Assembly: GCA_905178155.1 (NCBI GenBank)
Contig: CAJINV010000021.1
Span: forward strand, 850,449-914,448
Reading direction: 5' to 3'
DNA length: 64,000 nt
DNA from: Amoebophrya sp. A120
Taxonomy: Eukaryota > Protista > Dinoflagellata
Under the pieces are notes generated by a model. That model was given only the letters and a program-made list of their open reading frames with translations. It ran no database searches and was not told the origin of the DNA. The translations under genes were made by a program, and so were the position numbers. Positions 5,950 to 49,629 of this stretch are shown here, one piece after another. Position 1 is the first letter of the stretch; every line of letters begins with the position of its first letter.

Positions 5950-6180
5950 CCATCCGCCGGTGGAAGATGGCCACTGGAAGGACAGCCTCCGGCGTCTACC
6001 GAAAGGTGCTCGGTTTTGTAAAACTTTCATCCACCATAGCACTCACCTTCCGATTTTCCCGGAAAATCGGAATGTGTCACGTCCAATACCCAGAAAACCC
6101 CTGCTGCTTTCGCAGGTTTCCATCCACGACACCATGCACATTCCGATATTCACAAAAAATGGGGATCTGTCCTACAAGAC
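5950..6180. repeat. Solo degenerate unit of the 1-1830 satellite
   Basis: TTCCGATTTTCCCGGAAAATCGGAATGTG near 6048-6076 and ACCATGCACATTCCGAT at 6131. Confidence 0.8.
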
Positions 6181-21030: not shown

Positions 21031-23536
21031 CTACGGCGGATCATAATCGCTTCGCTCGATTGAATCATCTTCAAGGATCCTCTCAAGCGAGAGTAGCTGA
21101 CTTAAGAAATGCGCGTTCGTGAGAATTCCGAGGCGGCTGCGACTCACGTGGTCGATCGCTTGCGCCGCTTTCCAGCGGCAGTGGTGCATGAGAAACCCTA
21201 CCACCACAGCACAACTGCGGTTAATCCCGTTGATGCAGTGCACAAGCACGTTCCTTTTCGATTTCGCTTTCGACGAGCTCGCCCCGGTTGGCAGCTTACT
21301 TTCTGCAGAGTCAGGCTTTGTAATTGCCCCGGCAGTACTAGACGCAGGCGAATTTTCTACCGGCCCCCGCGCGGCCGTTTTAATTATATCGGACGTGGTG
21401 GATCCTCCGCCTCCGGTCCGCGAGCCTAGAAGACTCGAAAATGAAACAGTCTTCGCGCGTCCAGTCAACGGCCCTTCGTACCGCTCTCCATCCCGCGCGA
21501 TTTCAGGAGTTGATGCAGAAGTTCTTGGAACGGTGGTTGTAGTTCCAGTTGTTCCGTGGAGGTCATTTTCTTTCGGTGTTCTTGCAGCAGAAGCAGAAGG
21601 GAGTACTCTTTCTTCTACTCCACCTTCTTCCAGCTGCTCGTGTGGTCCACCACTTGCAGCTCCCGTCGAAGAACATGATAGTACCGACTCGGGACCACGA
21701 TGAGATGATCCTTCTCCTCGCCCGCCCAACAGCACTTCCGATTTCAGGTACTGGCTAACGCGAATGCAATCCGTCGCAATGTTGTAGGTTCTATCGTCGC
21801 GCGCAGCGATCTCCAGGTAGTGGAGTCTCTTGGTCCTCGCATCCGCTGTTCTAGTTTGCCGATGTTCTAGGTAATTTCGGTAGAAATTACCCGCGCTCCC
21901 AACATACTCCAGCAGCATCTGGTCGGAGTACAGCTGTCCATTGGCGAGCTTCTCAAGGCTGGACAGCTGCTGCATCTTGCTATCGTCTTTATTTGCAAGA
22001 TGATTTTTTTTGCTCGGCGACGATGCATTCATTGTTGACGACCCGGATGCTGTGCGATCTTCCGGCGCTCCAGCAATGGTTCCTGAACTTGCTTCTTCTA
22101 TCGCATCTGCTTCCGCTGTTTTGCGGGACGTCGCGGTGAGGCAGACCTGCTCCGCCGAAGCTCCGTCGTCTCGTCCTGTCGCTGCAATGGCCGTGCTGGT
22201 GCCAGTGGCACGATCTGGCGCGGCTAAGAACTCAGGAGCTGATACAAAAACTTTCCCTTGCGCAGGAGTTGTTCCTGCGGTCTTCTCCTCGTTTGCCGCT
22301 TGTAGTGTTCTACTTCCCGACGTAGTTGTACAAGAACCAGGAGCGGCACCAGGCTCCTTCGACGGAGAGGACGTGGCCGTCTTTGATGTTTCATCAGGGT
22401 CTAAAATCGTCGATACAGATACCCGAATGTCCGGAATTTGCTCGAAACGCCGCCCCGTGCCGAAACTTCTTCTGCTAAATCCCAGTGTCGAACTTTGGTC
22501 CAAGTGAACTACATTGGTGCCACTCGTAAACATCGTCTGACTCTGGTCCAAGTTATCCTCGAGGCTGCTTGTCGAAGCACCAGAGGTGGCTTGAGCTTGT
22601 TTATTCAGCAGAAGTTGCTGCTGCTCATTGTCACGACCTGCTGAAGTTGTTGGTGGAGGACCTGCTCCAGCTATTTCTTGATTGCATGATGGGACCGCCA
22701 TTGGAGGCGGTCGTCCGGTAGCAGAACTGATGCCAGAATGCGCTGCATTGTCCTCGTCGCGGATCCGCTGCAAAAGCCTCACTTGCTGAACCTCTTTTAG
22801 CAACAGATGGAGACTACCCCCTGCCATGTTGACAACTGTGTCAATATCCAAGCGCCGCAACATATGGTATCAAAAAATTGCGTTCTTTAGCGTTCTCCCT
22901 GGCGATGAAATTTGTCTTGCTGCTGTCGGGCCGCAAATAAGGGGGCAAAAATATTAAGAGTCGGGACAAAAATTCGTAGTTCTGTATTGCACAACATGCA
23001 TATTATACATAGTCACTATTTGTCTTCCTCTTCGCAAAGTAACTGCGGTAATGTGTAATAAGTACGTGAAAAAGAACGCTGACGCTGACACTTTTTTCTC
23101 TGTGATACAACAGGTGAAAATCCACTGCAGCATACAGGTTGGACAGGTAGATCACCACTTACTTATCCACAGTAAATTTCCCGCACACGTACGAATGCGG
23201 TCTCTGCATGGCAAACCTTGGCTTCAATCCTAGTTTAGCACGACAAATGTCAACTCAGTTGAAATTTTTGAAATTTGTGATGCATCTTGTACATGTACGG
23301 GAAATTTTTGTTGCATATTCCTCGTCCTCATACACCAGGTCTAGATCATTCGTCTCGAAAAACTTGCTGCTGCTCGGAACAAAATCTCCGGCTGCGGGCG
23401 GGGGTGAATCATCTCTGCTCTGCTGCAACTCCAACACTGCTCGTTCGCGTCTTTCGACAAGGATACGGTCGCCATTCGCGTCAATCAACGCTTGCAGGTC
23501 GGAAACAATAGTAGAAGCGGTTGCTGTGGCGGCCAT
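21031..23536 (-). CDS. Dual-specificity protein phosphatase; 2 introners
   Basis: Spliced IYLSNLYAAVDFHLLRRLDIDTVVNMA ... YLEIAARDD ... NVLVHCINGINRSCAVVVGFLM..ILTNAHFLSQL (HCxxGxxRS signature). Confidence 0.88.
22863..23107. mobile_element. Introner (degenerate TIR, unassigned family)
   Basis: TAT...ATA ends, perfect duplication CAACA; removal gives FHLL|RRLD. Confidence 0.85.
23164..23317. mobile_element. Introner family G (TATCCACAGTAAATTTCCCG...CGGGAAATTT..TTGCATA)
   Basis: Similar to 29445-29606; flanks TTACT/TTCCT. Confidence 0.85.
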
Positions 23537-23654
23537 CGGCAGAAGATTTGATTTATCAATTTCTTGATCTTCGATGCGGCTGCCTTTTTGTGATAAATCT
23601 CTACCATGACTAGTTATAAGTCAGAAAACCCATTATTTAATAGTATCCCGCAAT

Positions 23655-23875
23655 AAAAACAAACAATAGAAACGAAAAACAAAAACAAAGAATGAAAACG
23701 AAAAACGAAAACAAAGAATGGAAACAAAGAATGGAAACGAAAAACGAAAACAAAGGATGGAAACGAAAAACGAAAACAAAGAATAGAAACGAAAAACGAA
23801 AACAAAGAATGAAAACAAAGAATGAAAAAAAAAAACAAAAACAAAGAATAGAAACGAAAAACAACAACAACGAAA
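23655..23875. repeat. A-rich simple repeat (GAAACGAAAAAC/AAAGAAT)
   Basis: Direct reading of reiterated GAAAAC-type units. Confidence 0.9.
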
Positions 23876-23899
23876 TGCAGACAAAGTGCCCAAGCTTCT

Positions 23900-24630
23900 A
23901 AGCGGCGAAGCCTCGAAACGATGAGGCCTCGAAACGCCGAAGGAAGCGGCGAAGCCGCGAAGCCTCGAAGCAGCGAAGCCTCGAAGCAGCGAAACCTCGA
24001 AGCAGCGAAGCTTCGAAGCGGCGAAGCCTCGAAGCAGCAAAGCCGCGAAGCATGCAGCGCAGCCCCGAAGCAGCGCAGCCCCGAAGCAGCGAAGCCCCGA
24101 AGCAGCGAAGCCTCGAAGCAGCGAAGCCTCGAAGGAAGCAGCGAAGCCTCGAAGCAGCGAAGCCCCGAAGCAGCGAAGCCTCGAAACAGGGAAGCCTCGA
24201 CGAAGCAGCGAAGCCTCGATGAAGCAGCGAAGCCTCGATGAAGCAGCGAAGCCTCGAAGCAGCGAAGCCTCGAACAAGCAGCGAAGCCTCGAACAAGCAG
24301 CGAAGCCTCGAACAAGCAGCGAATCCTCGAACAAGCGGCGAAGCCTCGAACAAGCGGCGAAGCCTCGATGCCCCGAAGCCCCGAAGCAGCAAAGCCTCGA
24401 AGCAGCGAACCCTCGAAGCAGCGAACCCTCGAAGCAGCGAAGCAGCGAAGCCCCGAAGCGGCGAAGCCCCGAAGCGGCGAAGCCTCGAAGCGGCGTAGCC
24501 TCGAAGCGGCCGGCGAAGCCTCGAAGCAGCGAAGCCTCGAAGCAGCGAAACCTCGAAGCAGCGAAGCCTCGAAGCAGCGAAGCCTCGAAGCAGCGAAGCC
24601 CCGAAGCAACGAAGCCCCGAAGCCTCGAGG
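23900..24630. repeat. Minisatellite (CGAAGCAGCGAAGCCT)n
   Basis: Dozens of 16-20-nt variants in tandem. Confidence 0.95.
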
Positions 24631-24669
24631 CGGGGCAACAACGTGCGAAACGAAACTAACCTCGAAACA

Positions 24670-28571: not shown

Positions 28572-31500
28572 CTACCACCGCTGCCGCCGCGGCGTTGAAG
28601 GTGGTCTTTCGCTGGTGCGCATCGTGGAAGTAGATTCTCGTCGTTCTATGGAACTACGCGGTCCGTCGTTACGTGTATAATGATCAGAGCTTCGCCCAAA
28701 AATTGGCAGAGTTAATAGCTGTTCCTCGACGTCCCCGCCTCTGCTCCTTGTTGGGGCCGACGAGCGAGCTGGTATAAAAATATTGGGCTGCTTGTGGTCT
28801 ACTTCTTGTAGTGCAACATGTTGATCTGGATCTCCAAGTTGTGCCAGCAAGATGGAGGCAGCTTCCTGTACCACCACGTCCGTAGGTAGTCTTTTTGACG
28901 ACTATCATCACGAGGAAAAATAACGTCCCCACTTTGTTGCTAGTCAAGTCGGAAAGTAGTGTGCAACAGAAATAGGGAAGTTTTCGTTTTGGGAGTCACA
29001 TAACATCATGGCAAGTTTGTTCAGTTCTAGTATCCGTAGCGCAGTGCCGTTCAGCAAGGAAAGCCGCATCAGAAATAAGCCATCAGGTTTTATTTATCAT
29101 ATCCTGTAGTTTAATACACCAGCATCACAAATGTTAATGTTGCCGATGCAAATCTGCATGAGAAGAACTAGCACTCTGGGGCGGGGGGGGACATTTTTGC
29201 ACAGAATATCGTGGTGGAAGTCTTGTTCGACATCTGCAAATTCATCTTTTCTCCTGCACTAGGGGCGAGGCCGCGACCTTTTTGCCCCCACGATCTACTC
29301 GGAGCGACGAGCTCTGATGTTTTCTTGATACTCCGCTCCGTTTTGGTATTATTTCTTGTGGGAAGTAGTTGTGGTGGCCCAGCAGGACGAGGATTCATCA
29401 TCGCGGCTGCGTGGAGGTCCTGCGAAACACTGTGCAGAAGCTCGTATCCACAGTAAATTTCACGTACACGACGCACAAATGCGGAGGTCTCTGCATGGCA
29501 AAACTTGGCTTCGATCCTAGTTTAGTATGCCAAGTTTCACACTTCAAATTGGGGCAATTTGTGTTGCATCTTGTACATGTACGGGAAATTTGTATTCTAT
29601 TGCATAGCTCGTCGTCGTCCTCGATAAGCCCAAAATGGGGCACTGGAACAGGTATAAGAGTGCACAACTCGACGTCCCCGCCCTCTCCCTAACAAATTTG
29701 TGTGGCATCATGAGCAGCTAAAGATAAAGAAACACCACCAGCAGAAGAAATGTAGTACTCTCTGCAACATGACGAAAATGATACAGTGCGTGCTGTTCTG
29801 AGTGCTGTAGCTTGTCGTGGTCAACATGCAAGAAGTTAGGGCTAAATACAAATGGATAAAATACGGTGCATAAATTGCGACTTTGCACGATAAACGAGGG
29901 GGAGCTGCAACCGCGGGACGAGTTGTGCAGTCTCATAAGCGGTAGGCTTCTACTATGGCGTTCTCAAACGTTAGTACGCTCTCAACTGTTACATGGGTTC
30001 TTTGTAATGCACAAGAACAGCAACAGTCAAAGGGGCAAGCTTGCTGCTTTCGCATCGCAGATTTGCCACAGATTTGCATGCTGTTTAGCCCTTCGGAGAT
30101 TTGTCATGCGTAGCCGCTTAAGGCGGATTAAGGCAGTTTTGCATGACAATTCTCAACTGATACAGTAACAGTTGAGAACTGTAACGTTTAAGAATTATCC
30201 CATACCCACAACCTCCGTCCGCAGTAGACATGAAGTCCCCCTCCTCGCCTGCACATGGTCGTCGTGTAACTTCTGCTACATGATGTTTATTGGCCTCGAT
30301 GGAACTCCTGCAAGAAACAGCTGCGTCTTTGCTCACCCTGCCACGAACGGAGCGGGAGCTCCCGTTGTCGAGAAGGGGAATGTTGTTTCGCCGTGTTTTA
30401 TCAATTACATTTTCGTCCTGCTCTTTAACACCGTCTTGCTGGTCAGGAACATCGCCTTTGTCTACTGATGTCTTGGGCTCCTGTCGCTGTTTGTTTTCCT
30501 CAACCCGCAGGCTGGTAAAATGCTCGTCTACTTCGTTGTTCATGTTCTTGACCCCCGGGGCGGGCGCAACACTTGGTTTAGTATAATCCACCGGCGCGCA
30601 GAAGGTGGACGACCTAGTGGTCCCCTGACTTACCTTATCCAGTGCAAAAGTTTGATATCGTACTACCCGTCGTGCTAACAATGCATCTAATTGCGAGATC
30701 ATTGCATGAAAATTAAATCGACAATTTTTTGCCTCCTGAATCAGCATCGCAAATTCCATTACCATTTTATAATTTTTTGAAGCAATAATTATCTTCACGA
30801 CTAGGACGATGGATTATGCTTTTGCATCTTCAATGCATACACCTGGACGCCCCCTGTAGTGATACTATTCCCCGCCGCAACATCTACCAGGCTCCTGCTG
30901 CTTTTCTTCTCGAATATGGAGACCTCCGACGGCTGCAAACTTCTACCTGCCGTGTGGTTCGGTTCGAGTTCGACTCCAGCACCCTGCCACGCGAAAGCTG
31001 GTAGGTGGTCTACTTCTTTTTGCCGTTCAAGTTCAACGTCCGTGACCTGCAGTTGCACCAGGTGCTCGCCGCCAGTAGTTGTACTATGACGAAGATGTGG
31101 TCGTCCAGTTGTGATGTAGTTTTTGTTGCTTGTTACGCTACAGTTTTTGTTGGTACTAGATTTTGGCATTAAGTTGATGTCCTGCTGACCGGCGCCATGA
31201 TTTTCGCCGATAAGGTGAAGCTCCCGTAGCTATCGCGAGGAAAAATCAATCCCCCCTTGTCATATTCACCAGGTACGTTCTCGGAAATTTGCGTTGCTCA
31301 TTTGCGACCACGAATCGCGTCTGTCACTGTCTTGCAAGAAGGCAATTCCAATTTCACAGGCTCCGCCGCATTATGCAGGAGGTTTGTCGTGCTGTTGGGC
31401 CTACAGCACGGACGATTTTCATGCTAAGCGCCTAGAAGGCCAAAGCCACTCTACTACTCAGGCTTGATATGGCTCTGCAGTCCTGCTCTCCGGCAAGACA

Positions 31501-34500
31501 AATCTCAAGATTTGTGCACGCAAATTATCCATCATCAGAAACTTCGTTTTGGTATGGGGAGGGGGGATTTTTTTTTCTTGTGATAGCGGCCACTGCTGGC
31601 TCCTCGCCATGACCTGAGAGGTGGAATTTTTATCTTCAGATGAAGTTGTTCTTCGATTGTTTATTGGTGCCGTCCTCGCCACGGGGGATGGAGCACTCCT
31701 GCAGCCTCCGCTGGCCTTGCTGCTTGCTCGGACAAAAACTGAATCAGAATTGTCGACGCCGGTGACTATTTTGCTCGGGTGAAAAACATCGGCCAAACAC
31801 GGATCGGGCCGGCAACGCAAGGCGTGCGAGTCGAACTTCATTTCGGCCTTCTTGGCTTCCCGCCAGGCCTCCGAAGATTTACGGGGGTTATCGTAGGTGA
31901 AGCTAATACGGGGGTTATCGAAGCTGGAAGATTTAGGGAGGTTATCGTAGAAGAAGCTCGTTTATGCAATTGCAAAAGTACTATCAACATACTCGCACTA
32001 AAATTGCAATATATGCATGTTCACAGATCTATCTTTGCACACGGCGCTAAGCAGGATTTATTTTTACATCAAATTCCATCTTGCATGCCTTCCAAATTTC
32101 TCATGCGATTCCGATTTCTACTAGTGCGATGCTTTTGCAGTGCATATCGGTGACGTGGACGAAAAAATCTCCTCGTCAGGACTGGTCGTTGCCCGACGCA
32201 GCGACGGCACTTTGCTACTATTGCTGATGCTGCGTAAGCTGCTCCAGTTGTCTTCTATTTTCGGGATAGAGGAATATCCAAGAAAAAAACTGTGTTAGTG
32301 TAACTTTCATCGTTGGCCGCTGACAGCATCACAAATTCGCTCTACGTGACAGAGAAAATAGCCTGTCACGAATGCATGGCTTGAAAGGGAAATAAACACA
32401 CACGAAAAGAGGACTTCATCGTGGCTGTCTGGCATGACAGGTGTATAGAACTCTTGCTCTTCACTTCTGTTGCATCATGTAGTTCTGCATTACAACAGAG
32501 TTACACTTACACAGTTTTTTTCTTGCACAAAGTAGAGGCGGGCACGATGGTGTTTTCCTGAAAAGCCAGTTTTTTCTCGAGCATTTTTCTCTCGAAAGGA
32601 CTGCAGCCGTCGGGGAGTTCTTGTAGTTCCTGCGCGTTGTCATCATGATCTTCCACCTCCTCGGTGACCACGTTGCTTGTGTTTATCCTGAGTAAAAACG
32701 TCCCCACACCAGAGTCAAGCTGGGAAATCTGCTAGACAAATCTGTCAGCTTTTGCTGTTGCGCATGACAAGTTTGGCCTCGTAGTGTAATCCTGTTTAGC
32801 TTGTTCAGCAGCATCACAGATCGAGCATATCATGCTGCTTCTAGCATCACAAATCCCAAAACGCGACTAGAAATTGCCTCTCATGGATCTCCGCATGAAA
32901 AACATTTTCAGCATGCAGATTTGCATATACAACTCTGGGGTGTTTATGTACTGTATACAACTCTGGGGTGGGGACGTTTTTACACGGGATAGAGTTCAGC
33001 GCTTGTTCTTTGTGTCGAAGAAGCGGCTTGCTCCGCATGATCAGGGTGCGCTCGCTTTGCACCCCAGACGACCACGCTCTACTCTCGGTTATCGTGAGGA
33101 AAAATCCCCCCTCCCCGTACCAAAAAGGGACACTTCTGAAAACTTGTGACGCTGATTTGTGGCCACAAATTGTCTATGTATTGCAAGAAGGACACTCCAG
33201 AGACTCCGCCACATTATGCAGGCGGTTTGTGGTGCCATGGGGCCTACAGAGTACTACACATCTGCCATGCTGCGCGCCTACGTCAAAACCCTTCTACTTA
33301 GGCTTGATATGGGCCTTCAGTCCTTCACTGCAAGACAGACCTGATTTGTGTACGCAAATCCAGCATGAGAAACTTCAATTTGATATGGGAAGGGGGAATT
33401 TTTCCTTTTGATATCGGTGTAGTAGTCCTCACGAAATTCTGTGCTGAAACTCGGAGGCGTCGGCGGGGCCACCGTCCCATATGGAAGCGTCAGGATTGAA
33501 ATCGTCAGAGTTGAAGTAGTTTGTGATGCATAAAATGCAACCCACAAAATGCCTGTCTTGCGGAGTAGGCAAGGGAGGCAGATTGTAAGCCTGTTCAGGG
33601 GTAGAAATAGAGCTGCCAAGGTACCATGACAAAAGGCGTCTTCCTTACCCAGACAGCATTGCAAACTGGATTTCGGCTCTACCCAAATTTCTCATGCGCC
33701 ACTTGAAAACTAGACACCAACTGGCGTCCATTTTATGCATGGCAAACCATTTCAACTTTGTCGATTTCGATCCTGACACTACCATATCCTACTCTTCCTC
33801 CGCCGTAGAGGTACACCTCCGCTGCTGGTAAAAATGCTGTTGACGACCACCTCCGTGCTTCGACCCTTATTTTGGTTGTGTTTTTTCGATCTTCCTGTTG
33901 ATGTTCTTGCGTATAGTTCTTTTTCCATCTGAAGACTCTCCTCCTGTGCGGCATAAACATAATTCGAAGATGTTGATACCAGGGAGCTGCTTTTCTTGTT
34001 GAAAAGGTGCGCCGCGGACGAGGACTGCTGCTCGTCTCGGTTTTTCATCTGGTTATTCTGTGTAAAAACGTCCCCACCCCTGAGTTGTCACGCAAATGCG
34101 CAATGACAGGAACATTTGTATTGCGGATCTGCATGAGAGGCATTTCCAATCGTGTTTTGGACTTTGTAATGCTGTAAACAGGATGCGGGGCTGGCTTTCT
34201 CATGCGGCTGCCCTTGCTAAACAGGACGACGCTACAGATGGAAACAACTTGTCATGCAAAACTCCCAAAACTTGCAGATTTGTGTTGCAGATTTCCCAAC
34301 TTGACTATGGGGTGGGGAGGTTTTTACACAGGATATTGGTTGCTTGTTCGTCGTGATTTCAACTGTTGACCCCCGATTTTTCCACCGGGGTCCTCGGTGC
34401 CATCGCGTTCATCCATTTGTCGACCTCCAACTCCGGAATGGTCTGCAGCTTCTGCTGTAGTGGTCAGGGGGGTCGTCGTGGGGAGCAGCGCAACGCTCTG

Positions 34501-34822
34501 GTTACAACTGGTGTCCACATCAACACTGCAATTCTTGTATCCACTGCAAAAGTAACATTGTACTACTCGTCGTACTGATTGCTGCACTTAGGATGATATA
34601 TTGCTTTGTTTTTCATCCACACTGAATCAGCAGGACAAATTCCATTTGTCATAAGCACACTTGGATTTGTCATAAGCAGGTGGAGACTTGTGATGCAGGT
34701 CGTACTAGCACGATACTTTTTCTTCTGCAATGCATATAATCTTGTGTCTGCCCGAACTGGCGCCGCCAGTGGTGGTGCTGCAGTTCGGATTATTTATCTG
34801 GTGAGTGTTCTTGTTATTCCCT
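28572..34822 (-). CDS. Large hypothetical low-complexity protein, 13 introners; 5' exon(s) not identified
   Basis: All 13 junctions chain in frame (e.g. NQ|MKNRDE, YTE|SRAW, DDEL|LHSV) to TAG at 28572; most 5' exon begins after a TTTTCAG acceptor near 34823. Confidence 0.75.
28903..29208. mobile_element. Introner family D (degenerate)
   Basis: TATC..AAAAATAACGTCCCCAC ... GGGGACATTTTTGCACAGAATA; decayed duplication; frame restored. Confidence 0.7.
29445..29606. mobile_element. Introner family G
   Basis: Perfect duplication GCTCG. Confidence 0.9.
29653..29937. mobile_element. Introner family L (TIR TAT.A.A.TGCACAACTC)
   Basis: TATAAGAGTGCACAACTCG / CGAGTTGTGCAGTCTCATA; flanks ACAGG/AGCGG. 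Confidence 0.8.
29954..30204. mobile_element. Introner family E
   Basis: TATGGCGTTCTCAAACG left end; flanks TCTAC/CCCAC. Confidence 0.8.
30636..30839. mobile_element. Introner family A (degenerate)
   Basis: TATCCAGTGCAAAAG...CAATGCATA; flanks TACCT/CACCT. Confidence 0.8.
31231..31585. mobile_element. Introner family C (TIR TATC..AAAAATCCCCCCTCCCCATA)
   Basis: Family C body and ends; flanks GTAGC/GCGGC. Confidence 0.85.
31963..32146. mobile_element. Introner family A
   Basis: Flanks TCGTT/TCGGT. Confidence 0.85.
32275..32529. mobile_element. Introner family I (TATCCAAGAAAAAAAC..GTGTAACT)
   Basis: Related to 44452-44660; flanks AGGAA/AAGTA; frame restored. Confidence 0.8.
32684..32991. mobile_element. 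Introner family D (TIR TATCCTGAGTAAAAACGT.CCCAC.CCAGAGT)
   Basis: Flanks GTGTT/GAGTT. Confidence 0.9.
33090..33413. mobile_element. Introner family C
   Basis: Perfect duplication TCGGT. Confidence 0.9.
33480..33786. mobile_element. Introner family F (TIR TATGGAAGCGTCAGGATTGAAATCG.CAAAGTTGAA)
   Basis: Flanks TCCCA/TCCTA. Confidence 0.9.
34054..34335. mobile_element. Introner family D
   Basis: Flanks CTGGT/TTGGT. Confidence 0.9.
34538..34736. mobile_element. Introner family A (degenerate)
   Basis: TATCCACTGCAAAAGTA...TGCAATGCATA; duplication no longer recognisable but frame restored with element plus 5 nt. Confidence 0.75.
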
Positions 34823-35280
34823 GAAAATCTAGTACCATCGTCCCCAATATATTAATCTTCCATTTCCCGCATGACAAGAAGACAAAGTAGAAACTAAATC
34901 CTTGAGCCGATCCTCTCTTCAACTAATCCACCATGTCAAATCCTGGTGTGGAAAACACAAAAACGCCAAAAAACATCTTCACGGCCGAGCATCCTCCTCT
35001 TTCCTCTTCTCCCGGGGGGTCGGTCGCAGTGGCGGTTCATATTTTTATTTTTTTTGGGTTTTTGGTTTCACAAAACAAGGCAATTCAAATGTCTTAGGCT
35101 GCGAGAGCTGCATGGCAAACGCGTTCGCAAATGAAATGGCCTACCGTGACGCACTTTGAGCACCATCCTCAGACATAAGGTCCGTAGCCTGTTAGTGGTA
35201 GCACAACAACAAAAACATCTTCAAACACACATCTTCCTACCATTCTCACGCTAAGTTTAAAGTAGAAGAACAGAATCTGT

Positions 35281-38200
35281 TTATGCATGCTTGTTTGCGT
35301 GATGGCAATTTATTGCATCATGGAATGCAGTAGAAATGGTAAAAGTTCTCAGGGGATATTCCTCCGTCGTTTCGCGCAAGAGGTGGTTGAACTGGGTTTC
35401 GAAGGTGATATACCGGGATGTTGACTTGTTATCATTGTTCCTTTTCTTGGGTGGCCGCTTGTTCAAAATGAACTTCGGGTTTGTATTTTTCTTTGTGCTC
35501 GACGACGAGTTCTTGTTGTTCAAATTTATTTTTCCGTTGGAAGAAGTGCGGCGGGCGCCGGCGGCGGGGGTGGAATTACTAGAATTAGTTGTACTATCTT
35601 TGATATAATTTCTGGTGTTCGTCTTACGTGGAGGAGCTCTTTCTTGAGAAGGCTTACTAATTCTGGTTTTGGTCCTCCTCGTGGAGGTACTATAATTTCT
35701 TGTACCATGATCTTGATCTCCTTTGAGCAGCTCCTGCAGGCTCCTGTTTGAGTTATTTGACGAGTTGATCATACTCCTCCCTCGTCGCGGTCCCATTTGC
35801 AGCAGCTTCGGCCTTTTCATTGTTTTTGTTCCCGATGCTACTTTATTATTGTTATTATTTTCAAGGCCCTCCAAGTGCAACGGCTCTTTATGGCGTTCTC
35901 AACTGTGACATTCTCAGCTGTTGCATGGATTTGTCATGCGAAAGCACCATCATCATCGATCCACACGATCAAGCTGCTTCGCATGACAAATTTGCGAACG
36001 GCTAAGCAGCACCTAAATCTGTTTGGACTTTGTAATGCTACAGATGCAACTTCCCCCCTTTCACTTTTCCCATTCTTGCATCACAAATCCACCTAACAGT
36101 TGAGAATGTAACAGTTGAGAACGCCATACTCTTTGCTGCTCCATTCGAGGTCCGGACCGGATACCCTCCTCGCCGCGCCAGCGCGGCCCGTATGAAAGTC
36201 CACAACGAACCCCCTCATTTGTATGGCTATGAGGCATGAACTGCAATACAAACGCCAGCACACATGAAGTAGCCTATGCAAGCCAAATCTTCTATGTGGC
36301 TAATGTAGTAGAGTACTTACTGTTTGGGCTCCTTCCGGAATTTATTGTCACGCAAGCAGTGCCACAGGGCAGCGACTGGATTTGGGATTTTGCATGACAA
36401 ATGAGGGGGACGAGGGGGAGTTGCGCACTGTCATAGCCCGGCGGCATCTCGTTGTTCCTGGGTAGGTCTTTATTGTCGTTTGGCATCTGATCGAAGAATC
36501 CCCTGTAGTTTTTTCCATGCCCTCTGTCCGGTCCGCTAGAAGTATCCCCGGGGCTCGTGCCCGGCCCCTCGGTGTCGTCGGGTTCTGTCACGTCCCCGCA
36601 GGATATGAGACTGCACAACGGACTCCTCCTGCTCCGCCTCAGTTGTATATTGCATGAGCGGCAATACAAGCGTCAGCAAGAACGCAGGTTTTGCATGAAA
36701 AATTCTTTGCACAGGCGCGTCCTCGTGCCGTTTGGGCCGCTTCCGGAATATCTCATGCAGACAGTGCCACAAGCAACCATAAGTAGCTTTGGGACTTTGC
36801 ATGACAAATGAGGGACACAAGACGAGGGGAAGTTGTTCTTGTGCAGTCTCATACAGGACGAGCTTGTTTCCGCCGACCGGCCGGTCCGACAGCTATCTAA
36901 ATCGGTCGAGGTCACTTGCTGTGCGGTGCAAAAGTACCGTACTCGTACAAATTGCGTTTATGCATTACAAATCTTCTTGTTAAGGCAAAACCGAATTACA
37001 AATTCAATTTGTAATGCTAAGTCAATTTGCAATGCAAATTTTTATACTACCTAGTACGATACTTTTGCAGTTCATACCTGCTGTGCGCGGCAGGGGCAAC
37101 AGCAGCAGCACAGACAACAGGTCAAAAGGAAAGCAAAGCTGAAGAACGCAGTTCCCAGCACTGCACACTGCACCAGTAAATCGCTTTCCTCGCCAAATCC
37201 CTGGAGGAAAATACTGGTCCAATCCTGCTGCTGTATCAAAAGAAAAAATCTCGCCCCCTACGCATAGTATGCAAAAAAGAAATTTGTGAAGATGCTGATT
37301 GTGACCTGTCTTGCACATAGGGCGGCCGCAAGAAATGGGAGCCATTCCGAGCATTTTTCCACGACAGCTGCCCATCTGATGTCAGCACGCGCTTTTGCCT
37401 ACTGCAAAGCTGTCTGCCATGTCTAACTGATAATCTTTTGCATACCAAATCGAAACCAGGCTCAAAGAATAAGTTGTACCTCCGAGCGCTTCCTGCAATA
37501 GTACAGAACTGATTTGTGCACTTACACCAGAGATCCAGCAACAGAGATTTTCTTTTTTGTATGGGGTCGTGGGAGGGGCTTTTTTCACTTTGATATGCTG
37601 CGACGAATCGTTAGCTCCGCTCTGGCTAATATGTTGATTTGCATTCCTACCATCCTCGGTGTCCGACTCTTCGTCACCCAACCCGCCTCCCCCGGCAAGG
37701 TTGCCACCCTGTCCGCGACTCGCCCCCAATAACCCGGCTCCTATCCAGGAAAACAAAAAACACCCATCCGCCTGCATTTTTTGCATGACAAGCAGTGGAG
37801 TTTCTGCATATTTTGCATGACAACTTGGATGGGGATGAGTGTTTTTTCCTGGATAGCTCCTGCCCCCCATCTACTTCCGACAGCGGTGGTCGTAGTCGTT
37901 TCCGCCGCGCCATTGAGAAGGCGGAGAAGAAATTTTTTTGGCCCCCCGCCGCCGCTGTCCAGACCCAGGACGATATCCCGATAGGCAAGACTGGACAACA
38001 GAACAGCGTCCGGGACCTATTGTGAGGAAAAATCCCCCAAACTCCCCATATCGGACAGGAAATTTGTGCTGCTGGATGTAGCGCGTACACAAATTATCGG
38101 TTTGTATTGCTAAAAGAGCGACAAGAGACGCAGTTGTGGCCTTGTTTGGAGACAATTTGTCAACATGCTGTTTCCCACTACTTCCAGTTGCCTCCTGTCG

Positions 38201-41200
38201 CGCTGAAGTAGCTAGATGCAAGGCCTTCCCAGCACGCCAGCCAGCCCTACAGTCCGCATCTTTTGGTGCCTTCTAGCATGACAACAGAACATGATTTGCG
38301 GCCACAAATCAGCATCACAAATTTCCAGTTTGAGTATGAGGTGGGGGGATCTGTTTTGATTTTGATAGCACCCAAGGCTCGAAGAAACCGGCGAAAGTAG
38401 AACTTGTAGATGAAAGAACCGAGGACGAAGATGTTGCCTGTCTCGACCTCGTATTCCGGGCGGCATAACGGAATATGACTCGTGCGAAGCGAAGGAGATT
38501 CTTTTGCAGCTTTGCGTCGGTAAGAAAATGGTGGATCGTCGTGTGGTACACATTTCCGCAAATCACAAATGCGGACGACAGCAGCCCACTTAGAATTTTC
38601 TTTGTGTTCCGCCCTCGAAACTGAATGTTGTCGAAAGGGCCGAGGGGAATGGTGGCGTATCCAATGCAAATATGTCTGCATCTGGAAACTTGTGATGCTA
38701 TGCAGCTGCAAATGATGAATGCTCTGCAAGGCACAGCCAAGCATGAGAAATATTTGCGCGGCTTAGTATTATTGCGCCTTCTGCATGACAAGCTGCGTTT
38801 TTGCATGACAAGCCAAGCAAAGGGTGTCTTCTTGGACACGCGGCGTCACAAACTTTTCAGTCATGCCAGACAAGCACGAAAAACCTTGCATCCTTCCAGA
38901 CCCAGATCGATATTTGCAATGCATATGGCGAGGCCTTTGACAAAAAGTAGCATTCTGCTCGTCACCGTGGCCTGCAGAACACCTGTGTGGAAGGAATGAT
39001 TGATCACACAGGGTCGTGATAGCTCCATTTGCATTTTATTGCCATTGCCATATGAAATAAAACAGAACAAATAAATCAGCTCAACAACTTCTTCTTTTTT
39101 GGTCTTTTACTACATACTTACAGCATTTTTACATACCGTTTAGCGCCCGCTCCCACGAGTTTGCGTAGAGTTCCGTGACCAAAGTGCTTCTCGAGTTATC
39201 GAACGAGAGTGGGTGGTCATACCCTCCGGCGTAGCCGTCGGGCGAGCCGCGATCGCACCGGACCTTGGCAAACTGCCGGTCCGCGCTTTGGCGCAGCTTT
39301 TCCAGGCCGTTCCATAGTTGATCCGGGTCATTCTGCCCCACCGTCAAGGGCAGCATCTTCAAAGGAACATGACTATGATTTCCGGAATTGAGCGACGATA
39401 GCTGGAGCGGTGATACAACCGCTCGCCCCGCTGTCCCTTTCCTAATGACGCCCGGCTGAAGCGTGCGGCGCAACAGAACTGCAAGCGCGTGCGGTTCCCT
39501 GAGAAAAATCTGCTTGGCAACAGACAAAAATCGAGTGTACGCACCAGGTCGAATATCTGGAGGCGGAGTTCTTGTGTAGGAATTCATCAGGGGGGCGCGG
39601 TCCGAGGAAATGTCGGAGGTCGCGCTGCCAGAAGATGAACTACCTGTTTTTTCTGTCTCGGTTTGATGCAGTTCCACCCTGGCCGGTGTAGTGCTATGAT
39701 CTTCATCTGTATTTACGACATGGGTTGATGTTCCACCCGATGAACAACCAGAGCCAGATCCAGCAGCAGCTGCGGCACCCGCACCCGCGGCCCGTAGGCC
39801 GGTCACAGGACTGCATAGATTCTCCGGCACGACCAAAGCTCCTGGCACGGCCGCGCTTTCTTGTTTACGTTCTCCGCTCTCCGCAGATGATCTTCGCGTC
39901 GAGGACGAGGCATTATTCAGTCGATGAGGGCTATGGAAGCGTCAGGATTGAAATCGACAAAGTTAAAAAATTTGCAAAAATTATGCATAAAACCGCTACA
40001 ACCTCCAGTTAGACGCCCATAGATTGAGAAAGTATAGAAGTCGGCACATGACAAATTTCGCCCGTACAACCGGAAGCGAATCTGTCATGCTGTTTAGGGC
40101 CGCAAAGAAGCCCCTCGCTGTCATGCTAGTCAGTAGCCAAACTTCTGACGACCACGACCGTTAGCAGAATCTACCTCGTTTGCATCCTCTGCAGTAGAAT
40201 TGTCGCCTTTTGCGTCGGTGTTGCTGTCGCATTTTATGCGTTAGTACAGGTTGTTTTTTCAACTAAATCGATTTCGACCCTGACAGTGACAGTTCCATAA
40301 GGGCTGCAGCGCAAGCTGGAGAAGCTCGGCACCCTTGCCAACAAACGAGCGATATCAAATGCATAAATGTCTGGGTCTGGAAACTTGTGATGCTAAAAGT
40401 GAGTGATACGCAGCTATGCTTGACAAATTTTTTGGCTGCCATGTCTTACGTATTCCGCATGGCTGCAAACTGCGTTTTTGCATGACAGGTAAGAGGGCTT
40501 TTTCGTATCTATGCAACACAGATTCTCGAGTCATGCCAGACAAGCATGACAAACTTGCACTCATCTTCCAGACCCGGACATTTTTGCATTTGATAAGCGA
40601 TGCTGAGCCTACGCCGCGGCTGCGCGTTGGTCGCCTGACGCGGCCCAGAAATAACAGAAGACCCAGATAATTCATGTGTCCATGGTGCGTGGCCTGTAGA
40701 AGTCCCAGAAATAGCAGAAGAACCGGGTAATTCACGTGTCCATGGTGCTGCGCGGCCTGTAGAAGTCCCAGAAATAACAGAAGAACCGGGGGATAAAGAT
40801 AATTCCTGTGTCCATGGTGTGCGGCCTGTAGAAGGACAAACAGAAAAAAGAGAATCACCGGATAACTCGCGCGTCCATGCGCTGCGCTGATGACCAGTGC
40901 TCGGCTGTTGTGAGAGGACAGCAGGGTCTGCATTCAGCAGGTATTGTTTATCGTAAGGAAAATAAATCCCCCCTCCCCATATCGAAGCGGTATGCTTCCG
41001 AAAATTTGCGTTGCTGATTTGAGGCCACAGATCGCATTTCTGTTGCAAGAAGACAAGGGCAGAAGCTTTCGCCCCATTATGGAAACGATTTGTCACGCTG
41101 CTGGGACTAAAGGGGAGCCGTTTGCCATGCTGAACAACTAGACCCATACGCCCCTGCCTACCCTGGGGATCTGGCCGCAGTGCCTCTCTGCAATGCAAAG

Positions 41201-44200
41201 CTGATTTGTGTACACAAATCCAGCATCAGAAATTCCGTTTTGATATGGGTAGGGGGGATTTTTCCTTTCGATATTGTTCCTGCACCAACATGTCGGACCG
41301 CGGCGCGGTGGGGCCAGCAGCAGAACTAGTAGTACGACCTGGTAGAAGTCCACCTGCTCCCCGGCGAGCAACCCCACCAAAATCCTGATCGCCCTGCGGC
41401 GCGGCCCCGGCACTGAGCAAAAAACTTCTCCCCGTAGGGGCCGGGGGGCAAGCATTGGCGCGAGCAGGAGCTTTGGCCGTTGAACAACTACCGGCAACGC
41501 TAGCACCACCTCATCTATCAGATTCGCAAGCGTTATACTCTCAGCTGTTACATCATGATAAATTTTTTGTCTTGCAAAACTAGTACCATCAGCATCCACA
41601 CGATCAAGCTGCTTCGCATGACAAATTTGCGAAGGCGGGCTCAAGAACAATATTGAAATGATATGTGTCGAATTTGTAATGCTAGAGGCACAATTTTTAG
41701 AATTCTCCAAGTACACCCTTTGACTTTTGCCATTCTTACATTTTTCCAAATCCATGTAACAGCTAAGAATGTAAAAACGTTCGAGAACTACGCCATAACC
41801 TCCGGTAGAAGTTTGTTGTGAATTCAGTCGGGCAGATCGGTTGCTGATTTGTTTTGCCATTCTTCTACTTTGGCTGCTCATCTGTCTGGAGGTCATGGGC
41901 GTCATGTCGTCCAAGTGACCTATTAGAATGAAAAATACCCCCACCCCAGAACCTCCTGGCAGCACTTGTATTCCGTCTCGCATATATCAGCATCACAAAT
42001 TTGCCATGTTGAATAACTCAAATTTGTGTTGCAAAGAAGCCCAACAGCAGCCGGCGCCGGGTCTGTCATGCAATAAAAGGCACCTTGCTCACCTAGATTC
42101 TGCATCAGAAAGGCTCGTAGTCCTTTCATGCAAGACAAAAAGCTTTCCTTTGGATACATTGCATGAGAAACTTTTGCAAATTCCGGGGTCGGGGCATTTT
42201 TCATTGTAGTATCACTGGAGCCTTCGTCGACATCTTGTGGTGGGTGCGCCAAGTCGTAACTGGCTGGCAGTAGGTTCACGGCCACGGCCCACGTCCTCCA
42301 TGCGCCCGCCCCTTGTTCATCTGGGGAATTATCGTTGATCGCCGGCACAGGAGGCTCAGTTGTACCACAACCGCCTGTGGTGCCGGCGTTGTTCATCAAG
42401 GTGGTGCCGTCCTCCCCGCCGGCGGACATCACCTCCTCGCTGTTGTTACTAGTAGTACTGAGCGAGCGCAGAATCGCCAGCACCTGCGGGCTCCCTTGCC
42501 CAAACTTCGCGATGGTTGTCTCCAGGACGGCGATTACAAAGTCCTGTCTGCGCCTCCGGTCAAACACCCGGAAGGCATCTACTTCCAAGGTGGTCGGGGC
42601 ATTGTGGACGTCGCCGGCGCTAGAAGTGGTTGATGTCTGAAACGGCCTATTGAGGGAATTATGCAGCACCTCGATGTACTGCTGACCCAAGTAAGCGGAG
42701 TTGCAGAAGAAGTGCTATCAAAAGGAAAAATCCCCCCTCCCCATATCGAAAGCGTATCCGTCTGAAAATTTGTGATGCGCATTTGCGACCTCAAATCCTG
42801 CCTGTCTTGCAAGAAGGCAAGCCTAGAAAGCGTTCCGCATTTTGCAGGCGGTTTGTGATGCTGTTTGGCTTAGAGCATACACGTTTGCCATGCTAGGCGC
42901 CTACGTCAAAACCTCTCGACTGAGGCTTGGCATATGCCTGCACTCCTCTACTGCAAGACAAATCTGATTTGTGTATGGAAATCCAGCATGAGAAATTCTG
43001 TTTTGATATGGGGAGGGGGGATTTTTCCTTGTGATAAGTGCGAGTAATGCTGGATGCGCTTCCCCACGACGGATTGGAAGTATCAAATGTAAAAGTGTCT
43101 GGGTCTGGAAGGTTACAAGGTTTGTCATGCATATTTTGCATGAGTCAGGATGTCTGTAATGCATGATCTAGCATCACATATTTTTCGAGGCCTTCTTGAT
43201 GCCTATCCCGCATGACAAATGCCCTCCCCGCGTAGCACAAACTGGGCTCCTCTTGCTGGTCATGCAATACAGATTTTTTTAGCATCCAAAGTTAGCATCA
43301 CAAGTTCCAACCTTCCAGACCCAGACATTTTTACATTTGATAGGAAGAGGTTGGTGCCAACAGTAGACGGTGTTGGAACAACGGCTCCTTCTATCAAACA
43401 AAAAAAGTTCGTCACGATCACACATGCGCATTTTTGCAATACAAAACTGTTTGTCATGCGTAAAAATGCATCACAGCCAAACTTTATTAGGGATTTCCCT
43501 ACTAGTGTTTCTGCAATACAAGGAAAATTTGTGATGCTAAGAAAATTTGTAATGCAAACCCTGCAAATTAGTGACTGTGATAAACTTTTTCCTCTCCATA
43601 CCTTCAGCCACCTGCCCTGGAGGTAAGATCAAGTGTGGCGTCGGTCCAGGACGAGGACCCGCGGATTGCTCAGCATGATGCTCCGCCTGCCGTGGTCCTC
43701 CGAAGGGACCACCTCCGCCCGAAACAACGTCGTCTTGTCCGGCGTCGCGATTGGGACTCCGATGCTTATTTCCGGCCGTGCGGCGCGCGACTCCCGGAAG
43801 TAGCCCGGGTTTCTTCACAAGAAGAGCTTCTCGTGGTTCCGGTGATGAAGTAGTAGAAGATGTTGGTGGCAGTGGCACAGCTCTAGCCCCGGATGCAGCA
43901 GCCGGAAATGACGTTGAAGCGAACGTCGCTTTGCCTTTGCCTTTATCATTATCTTTATCGCCCCCACCACCATCTCCTTCATCTTGTAGCAAAAGGAGCG
44001 GCGACAGACTCATGCGCCCGAAGAGCGGGCTGCTGGGGATGAGTTGTGAGGCGAGCGAACCCGGCACGCGGGACGCAATATTGAGAGGAAAAATCCCCCC
44101 TCCCCATATCGAAAAGGCATCCTTCCGAAAATTTGTCTTGCTGATTTGAGACCACAAATCACGTCTGTCTTGCAAGAAGACAAACGCAGAGGCTTCCGTG

Positions 44201-47200
44201 CCATTATGGAAGCGATTTGGCATGCTGTTGGGCCTAGAGGGCAACCGTTTGCAATGCGAAGCACCTAGACCCAAATGTCCCTCCCTCGGCTGCGGATCTG
44301 GCTGCGATGCCGCATTGCAAGACAGCGCGCATTTGTGTACACAAATCCCGCATCACAGATTTCCACTTTGATATGGGGAGGGGGGATTTTTCCCTTTGAT
44401 GCGCAATTTTCCACACCTCTGCGGGCCTGGTGGTGATGTCGGACTCGAGCGTATCCAAGAAAAAAACGCTATAGGTGTAACTTTTTTGGAGGAACAGCAT
44501 TACAAATTTGTCTGGCATGACAGCAAAAACCTGTCATGCGCAGACAGTACGCGAAAACACCCTTTAATGGGCCCTAGGATGCATGCCAAGCATGACAGAC
44601 GCAATCATCTTGCATGCTGCGCATCACAAATTTACACTAACAACGTTTTTTTCTTGGATAGAGCGACGGCCCGTCCGCCGAGCGCTTCGCCTCCACGTGC
44701 ATGTAGCGGCCAAAGAAGTCCGACCGCGTTATGGGATTCTCAATTCATTGTTACATTCTCAACTGTTACACGAATTTGTGATGCTAAACCGACCGAAACC
44801 ACAAACGCAACCCATTTTAGGGCACCTTTCCGCAAATGGTCAGGCCACCGGGTCGCGGCGTCAGGCGGACCGAAGCCATCGCCATCACATGAAAGTGTGA
44901 TGCAAGAATGGTCACAGGGAAAGCCCGGATCTTGTAACTCTTGCGTTGCAAGTTCGTCACAGCTTCCCATGCTGTTTAGCCCTTCCAAAATTTGTCATGC
45001 GAAGTAGCTTCACCGTGTGGACATTGATGCTCGTTTTGCATGACAAATCACGGAACAGTTGAGAATGTAACATTTGAGAACGCCATACGCTTGCGCCGCA
45101 GCAGGCCTTTCGTCTCGGCGAGTTTGGTCCCCAGGGTGTTTTTGATCCGGTTCTTTTCTACCATTTCATGACGTTGCGTATTTTTATCATCTCGATCGTC
45201 CTCTACCTCTGATGTCTCGTCCACCAAACCGATTCCCTGGTACAGCATGTTGTTTGCGATTTCGGACGTGAAGAAGTATTCTTCACAGTGTGTGTTGACA
45301 TTGGAGGACGCGAGTTGTGCATGACCTTGCTCAGGACTGTTTGTGTTTTCGTCGCGCTGCTGTGCAAGAAGAGCTGCTGTAGTTCTTCTAGGAGGCGCGG
45401 CTGCCGATCTTCCTGCTGTCTCGCGTTCATCTCGTCCAGCTCCTCCAGGAGTCCGGCACTTGACCAGTGTGGTGGTGTAGGAGGTGAATTCCTTCATCAT
45501 GCGCTTCAGTTTGGACTCCGCTCGAAACGTGGTCACGAAGCCGATCAGGAGTTCGATGCTCATCTTCACGTCTGCCAGCTCGAACGCGCACACCTGCAGA
45601 AACTGGCGGTTTACCAGTTTCAGAAAGGTGAGCAGCTCCCCATTCTGGTGCTCGTCCGGAGGCCGGATGACCAGCAGGGCGCTTTTATCCTGAGTAAAAA
45701 CGTACCCACGCCAGAGTTGTAATGCAGATTCGCAAAGACAGGAAGACTTGTAATGCGCATCCCCATGAGAGCTATTTCCAGTCCTCGTGTTTTGGAATTT
45801 GTGATGCTGTGAACAGGATGAGCAGATGAATCTGTGATGCGGCTGCACTTGCTAACCTGCACTACACTGCAGAGTGCAACTTGTCATGCGTGACTCACAA
45901 AACTCCTAGGTTTGTGTTGCAAAATCCCCATCCTGACTCTGGTGTGGGTACGTTTTTACTCAGGATAGCTTTGACTCTCGGACAGTTGCCCGGGGAGGTC
46001 GTCCCCGGGGAATTGCTCCTCGTCGCTCGTCCCGTCCTCGCTGCCGCGAATGTGCTGAATGATTTCCACTTGTCCAGCGTCCGGTGGATTCTTGGTTTTT
46101 TCTCGCCGCATCTCGCGCGCAACGTCAACCAACATCGGCACCACCGTTTCATTTTTGTCCGGCTGCTGGTCCGCGAACGCCTGCTTCGGTTTCGTGACGA
46201 GGACGTGCTGCGTCTTTGTCTTCACAGGAGCGGCCGCAGGTCGTTGTTGCGGAGATGCTGGTGCTGACGCCCCCCTGCTGGAGGCGGGAGCACTGATGTT
46301 GACCACAGGGCGGGGCACGACGCGCCCCGCTGCCTCGGATAAAAAGAATGGGTTACCACGGCTAGAAGACCTGTTCGTCCTGGCGCTCTCGTCGTCTGGT
46401 TCCCCGAAAGACGCGCCGGGTGAACTACCACGCTGGTCGTGCTGCAGTAAAAACTGCTGATCGCCCGCTCCTGCGGCCGTCGCCTCAAAAGATGCGTGCG
46501 GAGGTCGCGGTGGTCCGGGGTACGAGGATGACCGCCCCGGCGGATCGGTTCGTCCTGGTTGTTGATGCTGTTCTTGAGCCAGTTGTCGCCCCAGCCGGGA
46601 AAGACGAACGGCGGCAGGGGCAGGTACAACCTCCGTTCTTTCCTCGTACCCCACATCCATCAGATTTGCGCTGGCAATTTTCTCGTCGATTTTGGGGCCC
46701 GCTTCCTCAAAAATCTGTGTCTCCATAGACTCAACCTTCGCCAATTGTGTCAGATACGCGGTGATCACTGCCGCGCTTTCTAGGTGGTAAATCTGCTCGA
46801 AGTGCAGGGTCACAAACTCGCACCACGCACTCACGGCCTCCACCCAGAGGGGACAGCGCTCGGCTAACACCTCCGGGCTGTACCAACGCGCCAAAGACCT
46901 GTTTGCGTTTTATAAAAAGATAGTAAAACAAGGATAAAATGCATTCTGCTGACAAGTAGAACCGCTCCGGGCTGCGCCAAAATCAAGACTGAGTACGAAG
47001 ATCATATTCATAGTGTCAAAACTACTCACAAAGGACCACTTCTCGACGTCGTAAATACAATCTCCACTTCCAAACGCCGTCTACGAGACGAAAGAATTCT
47101 ACGTACATTCATACCTCATCTTTGCCCTCCGTTCGACCGCGGCCGCGGCGGGTCCGAGGGGAAGCAAGTGCGCGTCTCTGGGCGCGGAGCTGTACAAGTA

Positions 47201-49040: not shown

Positions 49041-49629
49041 TGTTTTCGAAGAAATTGGAAAGCTTTTTCGCGAGCGACTGAACAATAAGTCGCAGATGTA
49101 GAAGGAATTCACATACAGTGTCAGTTGTTTTACATTCTAGTTTTACACTGATCAGGACGCCACTCGTGAAACTAATACAGTGCTGGCAAAAGAACAAACT
49201 GGTGATCTTCGAGATCATCTTCGGACTTGTCAATGAATTCGAACGCAAGAATCATTTGTACGATGGATCTGAGTAATCCGGGTTGTAAAAGATGTCCGGA
49301 CAAGAACATCATGCAAGAAAAGGTGGCGATTGACTACGTCGTATAACATTGTCGAGCTGCAAAACCGAAACCGCAAGAACTACCGCGAGAACCGTTGATC
49401 TTCTTTCCGTCGCTTGTGAGATGAAAAGAGGGAGCACAATACTGTGCACAAGGACAACTGGTCGAAAAACCAAAAAAGCAAGTGCTTACAGTCCACCTGA
49501 AGAATGCGAACATCGAACCCGTGCTGGTGGACTTGTTGCCCACGTGCTTGGTTTGTATGGTGATTGAAGTGCGATTCATCGCACTCTTCAAATAAACATT
49601 CAGTGCTAGTTTTCCTTCATCCTCTCTCA

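What the first reader, a model, noticed from the sequence alone, without database searches (positions are those of the whole stretch)
40944..43347. Introners whose junctions cannot be GT-AG, GC-AG or any G-initiated type in any register
Seen: on the sense strand the duplications are CTTCC (43081-43342) and AACAA (40949-41273). Sliding the cut through all six equivalent registers gives no G-initiated donor and no AG acceptor, yet the frame is restored exactly. Across the window the TSDs show no sequence preference. Inference: boundaries may be defined by TIR base-pairing or the TAT/ATA ends rather than by standard U1/U2AF signals. This would imply a modified spliceosome, a non-spliceosomal RNA excision route, or DNA-level excision like ciliate IESs.
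Basis: partly seen in the sequence, partly recalled or inferred. Interest (0 to 1): 0.75.

Follow-up and report, generated by a model that had tools for sequence, protein, structure and literature searches.

The report
Known hairpin introns, fixed cut position
These small hairpin-ended transposon copies interrupt a gene of the marine parasite Amoebophrya and lack normal splice signals; such introns are already published, but they are likely cut from the RNA at one fixed position set by the hairpin ends, which gives a test for a splicing mechanism that is still unexplained.

Summary
Observation confirmed; the class is already published. Both elements are real (TAT...ATA inverted ends, 5-nt duplications) and no equivalent register gives a G-donor or an AG acceptor on the coding (minus) strand. 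Window proteins are 100% identical to Amoebophrya sp. A120 entries, and the elements match the introners of Farhat et al. 2021 (non-canonical, TAT ends, U1 not detected). Removing 12 elements plus 5 nt each opens a 1,415-codon frame. A deposited A120 protein spans the 43081 junction exactly; the 40949 junction rests on the reading frame only. Refinement: 10 transcript-like contig joints in the neighbouring gene all skip element+5, even where the duplication has decayed, and share only one register (1 nt before TAT, 4 nt after ATA; P=0.005). A nearby GT-AG is ignored. The focal introns are then CT..TC and AT..CA. This disfavours DNA excision, cryptic sites and template switching. A relaxed spliceosome reading U+2/A+3 and an A at -7 is the likeliest mechanism (inferred). 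This scan reported the same register on other pieces of this genome (unreviewed notes).

The parts
39129..46909 (-). Host gene of unknown function: 1,415-codon stop-free frame after removing 12 elements (+5 nt each); first ATG at 46726
   Evidence: no Pfam match for four of its stretches
43077..43343 (-). Intron in the inferred register, CT..TC; element 43081-43342 plus one 5-nt repeat (CTTCC copies 43076-43080 and 43343-43347)
   Evidence: deposited protein P0002 (CAD7972952.1) spans it exactly; long terminal stem, z -8.3
42712..43037 (-). Intron TT..AC; element 42716-43036, repeat GCACT
   Evidence: P0002 spans it; X3 contig 5 leaves the genome at 42709, the first equivalent register
41917..42212 (-). 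Older intron AT..TC; element 41921-42211, decayed repeat (AGTGA/GGTCA), 5' end TAC
   Evidence: P0003 (CAD7972950.1) allows registers -1 to 1 only
41512..41798 (-). Older intron TT..TG; element 41516-41797, repeat displaced by 3 nt
   Evidence: P0003 fits a skip of element+5 (registers 0-2) and not element+8
40945..41274 (-). Intron in the inferred register, AT..CA; element 40949-41273 plus one 5-nt repeat (AACAA copies 40944-40948 and 41274-41278)
   Evidence: reading frame only; no contig or deposited protein seen across it; fold z -5.6
43388..43601 (-). Element 43392-43600 whose repeat (GAAGG) happens to give GT..AG in the same register
30206..35883 (-). Neighbouring gene with 10 element joints seen in transcript-like contigs; source of the register inference (888 codons without a stop when joined)
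23160..23318 (-). Element 23164-23317 in a dual-specificity phosphatase gene; registers 3-5, including GA..AG, create a stop

Best explanation
These are Amoebophrya A120 introner elements, short inverted-repeat inserts with 5-nt duplications and no canonical splice sites, that are likely removed from the pre-mRNA at a fixed position (1 nt before TAT, 4 nt after ATA), likely by a relaxed spliceosome. Shown: anatomy, absence of G/AG ends, frame restoration by element+5, organism identity, element-free contigs and deposited proteins. Inferred: (1) insertion as non-autonomous DNA transposons creating the 5-nt duplication; (2) the inverted ends pair and bring the junctions together; (3) the element supplies U+2 and A+3 of the donor and an A at -7 that may be the branch point, while +1 and the last two bases come from the random duplication and are not read; (4) catalysis by the U2/U5/U6 core without ordinary U1/U2AF recognition. 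Because both ends carry the same motif, either insertion orientation would be spliced.
For: 10 of 10 element joints visible in X3/X4 contigs skip element+5; allowed registers intersect only at 1; P=0.005 if cuts were independent. The rule holds where the repeat has 2-3 mismatches (4 of 10) and where it is displaced by 3 nt (34538; 41516). At 30636 a GT..AG 2 nt away is unused and would frameshift. P0001, P0002 and P0003 all fit register 1. All 18 commonest junction types in Farhat Table S4 have T at +2. Among 185 strand-assigned elements, changes at +2/+3/+4 number 2/1/5 and at -7/-6/-5 number 0/5/3: the two As (1 change) are better kept than their mirror Ts (10 changes; binomial p about 0.012 by hand, post hoc), with no general A>G versus T>C strand bias (0.033 vs 0.032), and both +2 C cases have +1 G, giving GC donors. 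The largest family lies 39:51 in the two orientations. U2, U4, U5, U6 and 83 of 89 proteins are reported present in A120, U1 not detected. A branch A close to the 3' end has an alveolate precedent (Stentor, position 10 of 15).
Against: No lariat, intermediate or snRNA was examined. All 10 joints come from one gene and one sample of contigs whose RNA nature is a guess, and only 15 of 65 joint rows were shown. No read or contig was seen across either focal junction; 8 of 36 and 2 of 21 nearby GT/GC..AG pairs would also keep the frame. A +3 G copy (32275) is still removed, so A+3 is not essential. G.U is not favoured over A.C in the arms (113:134, p=0.2), so RNA pairing under selection is not shown. 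No bias to G at +1 or AG at the end and no selection for the U of a yUnAy branch motif (100 vs 95). The terminal counts are small and the scan required one intact end.
Confidence: 0.6

Rival explanations
1. Same fixed register, but a non-spliceosomal RNA route: a nuclease or ligase recognises the base of the hairpin and cuts 1 nt 5' and 4 nt 3' of it, as proposed for euglenid nonconventional introns.
For: Long stable stems closing exactly at TAT/ATA; indifference to +1 and to the 3' dinucleotide; both orientations used; euglenid introns have stems at fixed offsets from non-canonical ends (review passage).
Against: The register coincides with the one giving GT..AG when the repeat supplies it (43392, 52666); T at +2 nearly invariant and GC as the only exception seen; terminal changes are mostly T>C (11) rather than wobble-friendly A>G (2), which pairing alone would not predict.
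Confidence: 0.27
2. DNA-level excision, like ciliate IESs, gives element-free templates.
For: Inverted ends with TA-rich termini and precise loss of one repeat. No DNA run was laid, so a minority element-free form is not excluded.
Against: The assembly keeps the elements; runs X1/X2 hold 0.72 of the words of the element-rich stretch. In 7 of 7 joints with a mismatch at repeat positions 2-4 the transcript-upstream copy is kept, and in 3 of 3 with a mismatch at position 5 the downstream copy: polarity follows transcription. Dinoflagellates have no known nuclear dimorphism (recalled).
Confidence: 0.04
3. The focal elements are removed by ordinary splicing at cryptic GT/GC-AG sites nearby, or the gene is dead.
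For: 8 of 36, 6 of 24 and 2 of 21 nearby pairs keep the frame; 40949 has no transcript evidence here.
Against: P0002 is an exact substring of the precise-removal model across 43392, 43081 and 42716; exon-only contig pieces at 39535-39896, 42324-42709 and 45118-45424; 1,415 open codons across 12 elements.
Confidence: 0.04
4. The element-free joints are reverse-transcriptase template switches between the direct repeats across the hairpin.
For: Hairpin plus short direct repeat is the classic setting for this artefact (recalled).
Against: Joints are exact where only 1 base is shared on both sides and do not follow displaced repeats; ten joints in one gene give 888 open codons.
Confidence: 0.03

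Closest known systems
Introner elements among the non-canonical introns of Amoebophrya sp. A120 (Farhat et al. 2021, PMC7789003)
   Same: Same organism; TAT-initiated inverted repeats followed by an A run, 3-5 nt direct repeats over the boundary, about 240 nt, non-canonical RNA-supported junctions, co-oriented genes.
   Different: The paper calls the splice position relative to the hairpin variable or unknown (Fig. 3 legend); here it resolves to one register. The repeat is strictly 5 nt (74% perfect at 5, 1% or less at 3, 4 and 6-9).
MITE-derived introners of Micromonas, Aureococcus, Symbiodinium and Polarella (PMC9860276, PMC11282704; passages)
   Same: TIR plus TSD elements that are spliced out and leave the coding sequence intact.
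   Different: Those carry or co-opt GY and AG ends; only 10 of 177 elements here have GT/GC..AG in any register.
Euglenid nonconventional introns (review passage, PMC11282704)
   Same: Terminal pairing at fixed offsets from non-canonical junctions, with TSD-like repeats.
   Different: Different lineage and motif (CAG/CTG at +4 to +6 and -8 to -6, pyrimidine|purine borders); no shared sequence was tested.
Fritillaria non-canonical introns (passages in PMC7789003 and PMC11282704; PMC13326754 listing only)
   Same: MITE-derived non-GT-AG introns removed by an altered spliceosome.
   Different: Those keep preferred ends (AG-AC, AG-AT); here +1 and the last two bases are free.
Ciliate IESs (recalled)
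   Same: Precise loss of an insert plus one repeat copy.
   Different: IESs are cut from DNA at TA repeats; here repeats are random 5-mers, TA is scarce in them, and polarity follows the transcript.

Membership tests
Amoebophrya A120 introner elements | Occurs in the A120 genome | tested here: met
   Three window proteins 100% identical to entries named Amoebophrya sp. A120
Amoebophrya A120 introner elements | Terminal inverted repeat starting TAT, then variable bases and an A run | tested here: met
Amoebophrya A120 introner elements | 3-5 nt direct repeat over the boundaries | tested here: met
   5-nt repeats at both focal elements; 189 of 254 perfect in related loci
Amoebophrya A120 introner elements | Repeated family members elsewhere | tested here: met
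   146 stretches with the 43081-type arm, all from one assembly prefix; family clustering
Amoebophrya A120 introner elements | Absent from the transcript, non-canonical junction | tested here: inconclusive
   Met indirectly for 43081 (deposited protein) and directly in contigs for 10 neighbours; frame evidence only for 40949
Canonical U2 or U12 intron | GT/GC..AG or AT..AC ends in some register | tested here: not met
Spliceosomal substrate (works like) | Lariat with 2'-5' branch; dependence on U2/U5/U6 | not testable with these tools
   Only indirect signs: T at +2, GC exceptions, A at -7 unchanged in 185 of 185
MITE (non-autonomous TIR transposon) | TIRs, fixed-length TSD, many short non-coding copies | tested here: met
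MITE (non-autonomous TIR transposon) | Cognate autonomous transposase | not tested
   No whole genome held; Farhat found none in A120
Ciliate-type IES | Element-free form exists in DNA | not tested
   No run on record as DNA was laid; indirect evidence against

The most novel reading that the evidence does not exclude
Amoebophrya runs a ruler spliceosome: it has dropped recognition of G+1 and of the 3' AG, takes U+2/A+3 and a branch A seven bases from the end from the transposon's palindromic TAT/ATA, and cuts 1 nt before and 4 nt after the stem. Any insertion of these elements, in either orientation and at any site, is then a perfect intron, which would explain their genome-wide spread.
Probability: 0.4. 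Interest if true: 0.75.

Novelty: already known. Interest (0 to 1): 0.38.

Why it matters
The existence of these introns is published, so the finding as written adds little. How they are spliced is still open. A fixed register converts tens of thousands of ambiguous junctions into defined NT..NN introns, predicts the exact first base and a candidate branch point for lariat experiments, and would allow correct gene models (the host gene appears in the database as at least two partial proteins). If the spliceosome is responsible, it works without either invariant terminal dinucleotide.

Tried and rejected
AG enrichment at repeat positions 3-4: seemed present by eye in window elements (6 of 22) but vanished in 189 repeats from related loci; rejected. 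My first reading of the 30631-30841 joint as GT..AG used a wrong coordinate; corrected to a 209-nt skip. First boundaries for 41921 and 41516 were off by one, corrected. G.U versus A.C test of arm pairing: no signal. yUnAy test: no signal. Raw RNA runs X9 and X10 laid only 11 and 349 reads, almost all on repeat copies, so they say nothing on this gene. No holder was on record as RNA. Word-indexed protein searches with two focal exons found nothing; the HMMER search did. No Rfam match in the window. No whole genome held, so no snRNA or transposase search. L075 is not an orthologous locus: the same two families lie side by side but the exon between differs. No direct read view of the two focal junctions and no DNA-run control was obtained. 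Roy et al. 2023 was not held.
Full report
1. Observation. They are two of 38 TAT..ATA candidates in the window; 24 have a perfect repeat and an arm score of at least 8, against 0-1 in each of 10 Markov shuffles. Both fold into long stems that close at TAT/ATA (z -8.3 and -5.6). On the minus strand no equivalent register has a G donor, an AG acceptor or AT..AC; 40949 has eight registers, not six.

2. Host gene and organism. Removing 12 elements plus 5 nt each opens a 1,415-codon minus-strand frame, 46909-39132. Keeping any one element, or skipping 1-2 nt more or less, breaks it. Four stretches of it have no Pfam match. A phosphatase gene at 21-23.5 kb is identical to an Amoebophrya sp. A120 protein. 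An exon of the focal gene hits two partial A120 proteins at 100%. P0002 (CAD7972952.1) is an exact substring of my model from 43830 to 42322, across the 43392, 43081 and 42716 junctions; P0003 (CAD7972950.1) spans 41921 and 41516. A 699-nt contig of run X3 leaves the genome at 42709, the first register of precise removal, and its remaining 313 nt match the length the model predicts back to 43829; those upstream pieces were not displayed. The deposited models and the contigs may rest on related RNA data, so I do not count them as independent. For 40949 there is only the frame; 2 of 21 nearby GT/GC..AG pairs would also keep it.

3. The register. One lay of four runs on 30,000-49,500 showed 15 of 65 joint rows. 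Nine rows, plus one joint read from the table of pieces, are element skips in the neighbouring minus-strand gene; the other six rows join different repeat copies and were set aside. All ten skip element length + 5 and together give 888 codons without a stop. Nine have mismatched repeats, which limit where the cut can lie. The allowed sets intersect at a single register: the intron starts 1 nt before TAT and ends 4 nt after ATA. Given the mismatch positions, independent cuts would share a register with P=0.005. The joints do not follow repeats displaced by 3 nt (34538; 41516). At 30636 a GT..AG lies 2 nt away, is unused and would frameshift. In the phosphatase gene, registers 3-5, including GA..AG, create a stop. 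The same register yields GT..AG at 43392 and 52666 when the repeat supplies the letters. The focal introns are then CT..TC and AT..CA. Limits: one gene, one sample, contigs whose RNA nature is the tool's guess, and no DNA run laid as control.

4. What is read. A pattern scan gave 146 loci, all from one assembly prefix, none matching unique window sequence. Of 254 elements there, 189 have a perfect 5-nt repeat, with no preference for AG or G. I assigned a strand to 177 of 275 elements; after adding ten window elements supported by contigs or frame and dropping two false calls, 185 remained. Most families occur in both orientations to the transcript (39:51 in the largest). Changes at +2/+3/+4 were 2/1/5 and at -7/-6/-5 were 0/5/3. 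Both +2 changes give GC donors. The two adenines are better kept than the thymines that mirror them (1 vs 10), with no strand bias in the element bodies (A>G 0.033, T>C 0.032). This test was prompted by note e1-10589777, is post hoc and rests on small counts. Against a neat model: a +3 G copy is still removed, wobble pairs are not favoured in the arms, and no yUnAy signal appears.

5. Mechanism. Shown: anatomy, non-canonical ends, element+5 removal, one shared register in the joints seen. Inferred: MITE-like insertion; stem formation; recognition of U+2/A+3 and a branch A at -7 by a relaxed U2-type spliceosome (0.6). Main rival: a hairpin-guided non-spliceosomal nuclease/ligase (0.27). DNA excision, cryptic sites and template switching are each at or below 0.04, for the reasons listed under the rivals.

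6. Literature. Farhat et al. 2021 (PMC7789003; read: abstract, sections 10, 11, 12, 16, 32, passages, supplement passages with Table S4) report 65% non-canonical introns in A120, RNA-supported, inverted repeats starting TAT, 3-5 nt direct repeats, U1 not detected, and leave the border position unknown. All 18 predominant junction types in Table S4 have T second, which fits the register. Figures 3, S19 and S23 are pictures I could not see and may already show part of this. Passages only: PMC12130899, PMC11282704, PMC9860276, PMC9505925. Listing only: PMC13326754. Roy et al. 2023 not held. Five searches found no paper fixing the register or reporting lariats in Amoebophrya; subscription journals are largely outside the library. 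Unreviewed notes of this scan on other pieces of the same genome reach the same register; I had derived it before that call (notes), and the notes are not independent support.

7. Verdict. Real, already described class in the organism where it was described; interest 0.38, carried by the fixed register as a handle on an open splicing question.

Noticed in passing
window 44079-44401: Element whose sense 5' end is CAT rather than TAT, preceded by G, giving a GC donor; the only other CAT case (L001:1359-1507) is also preceded by G.
   Followed up: partly
window 34815-35358: Longer (544 nt) element with a decayed repeat, still removed as element+5 in contigs.
   Followed up: partly
window 1-1800: Tandem array (periods 103 and 256-259) carrying a palindromic core; also two copies near 6015-6172.
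   Followed up: no
window 23650-26980: Three adjacent satellite-like arrays (13/26-nt A-rich, 8/16-nt, 22-nt GC-rich units) just upstream of the phosphatase gene.
   Followed up: no
window 40644-40861: In-frame 63-72 nt tandem repeat inside an exon of the host gene.
   Followed up: no
window 21034-23536 (-): Dual-specificity phosphatase gene (PF00782), identical to A120 protein CAD7972943.1, with two TAT..ATA elements as introns.
   Followed up: partly
L075:1501-2018 vs window 43081-43602: The same two element families lie side by side about 45 nt apart in an unrelated gene; probably chance given their density.
   Followed up: partly
window 39129-46909 (-): The host gene seems to be deposited as overlapping partial proteins (CAD7972952.1, CAD7972950.1); the fixed rule joins them into one 1,415-codon frame.
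   Followed up: partly
loci L001-L146: TA and AT dinucleotides are scarce in the 5-nt duplications (5-18 of 378 per position against about 20-34 for others).
   Followed up: no
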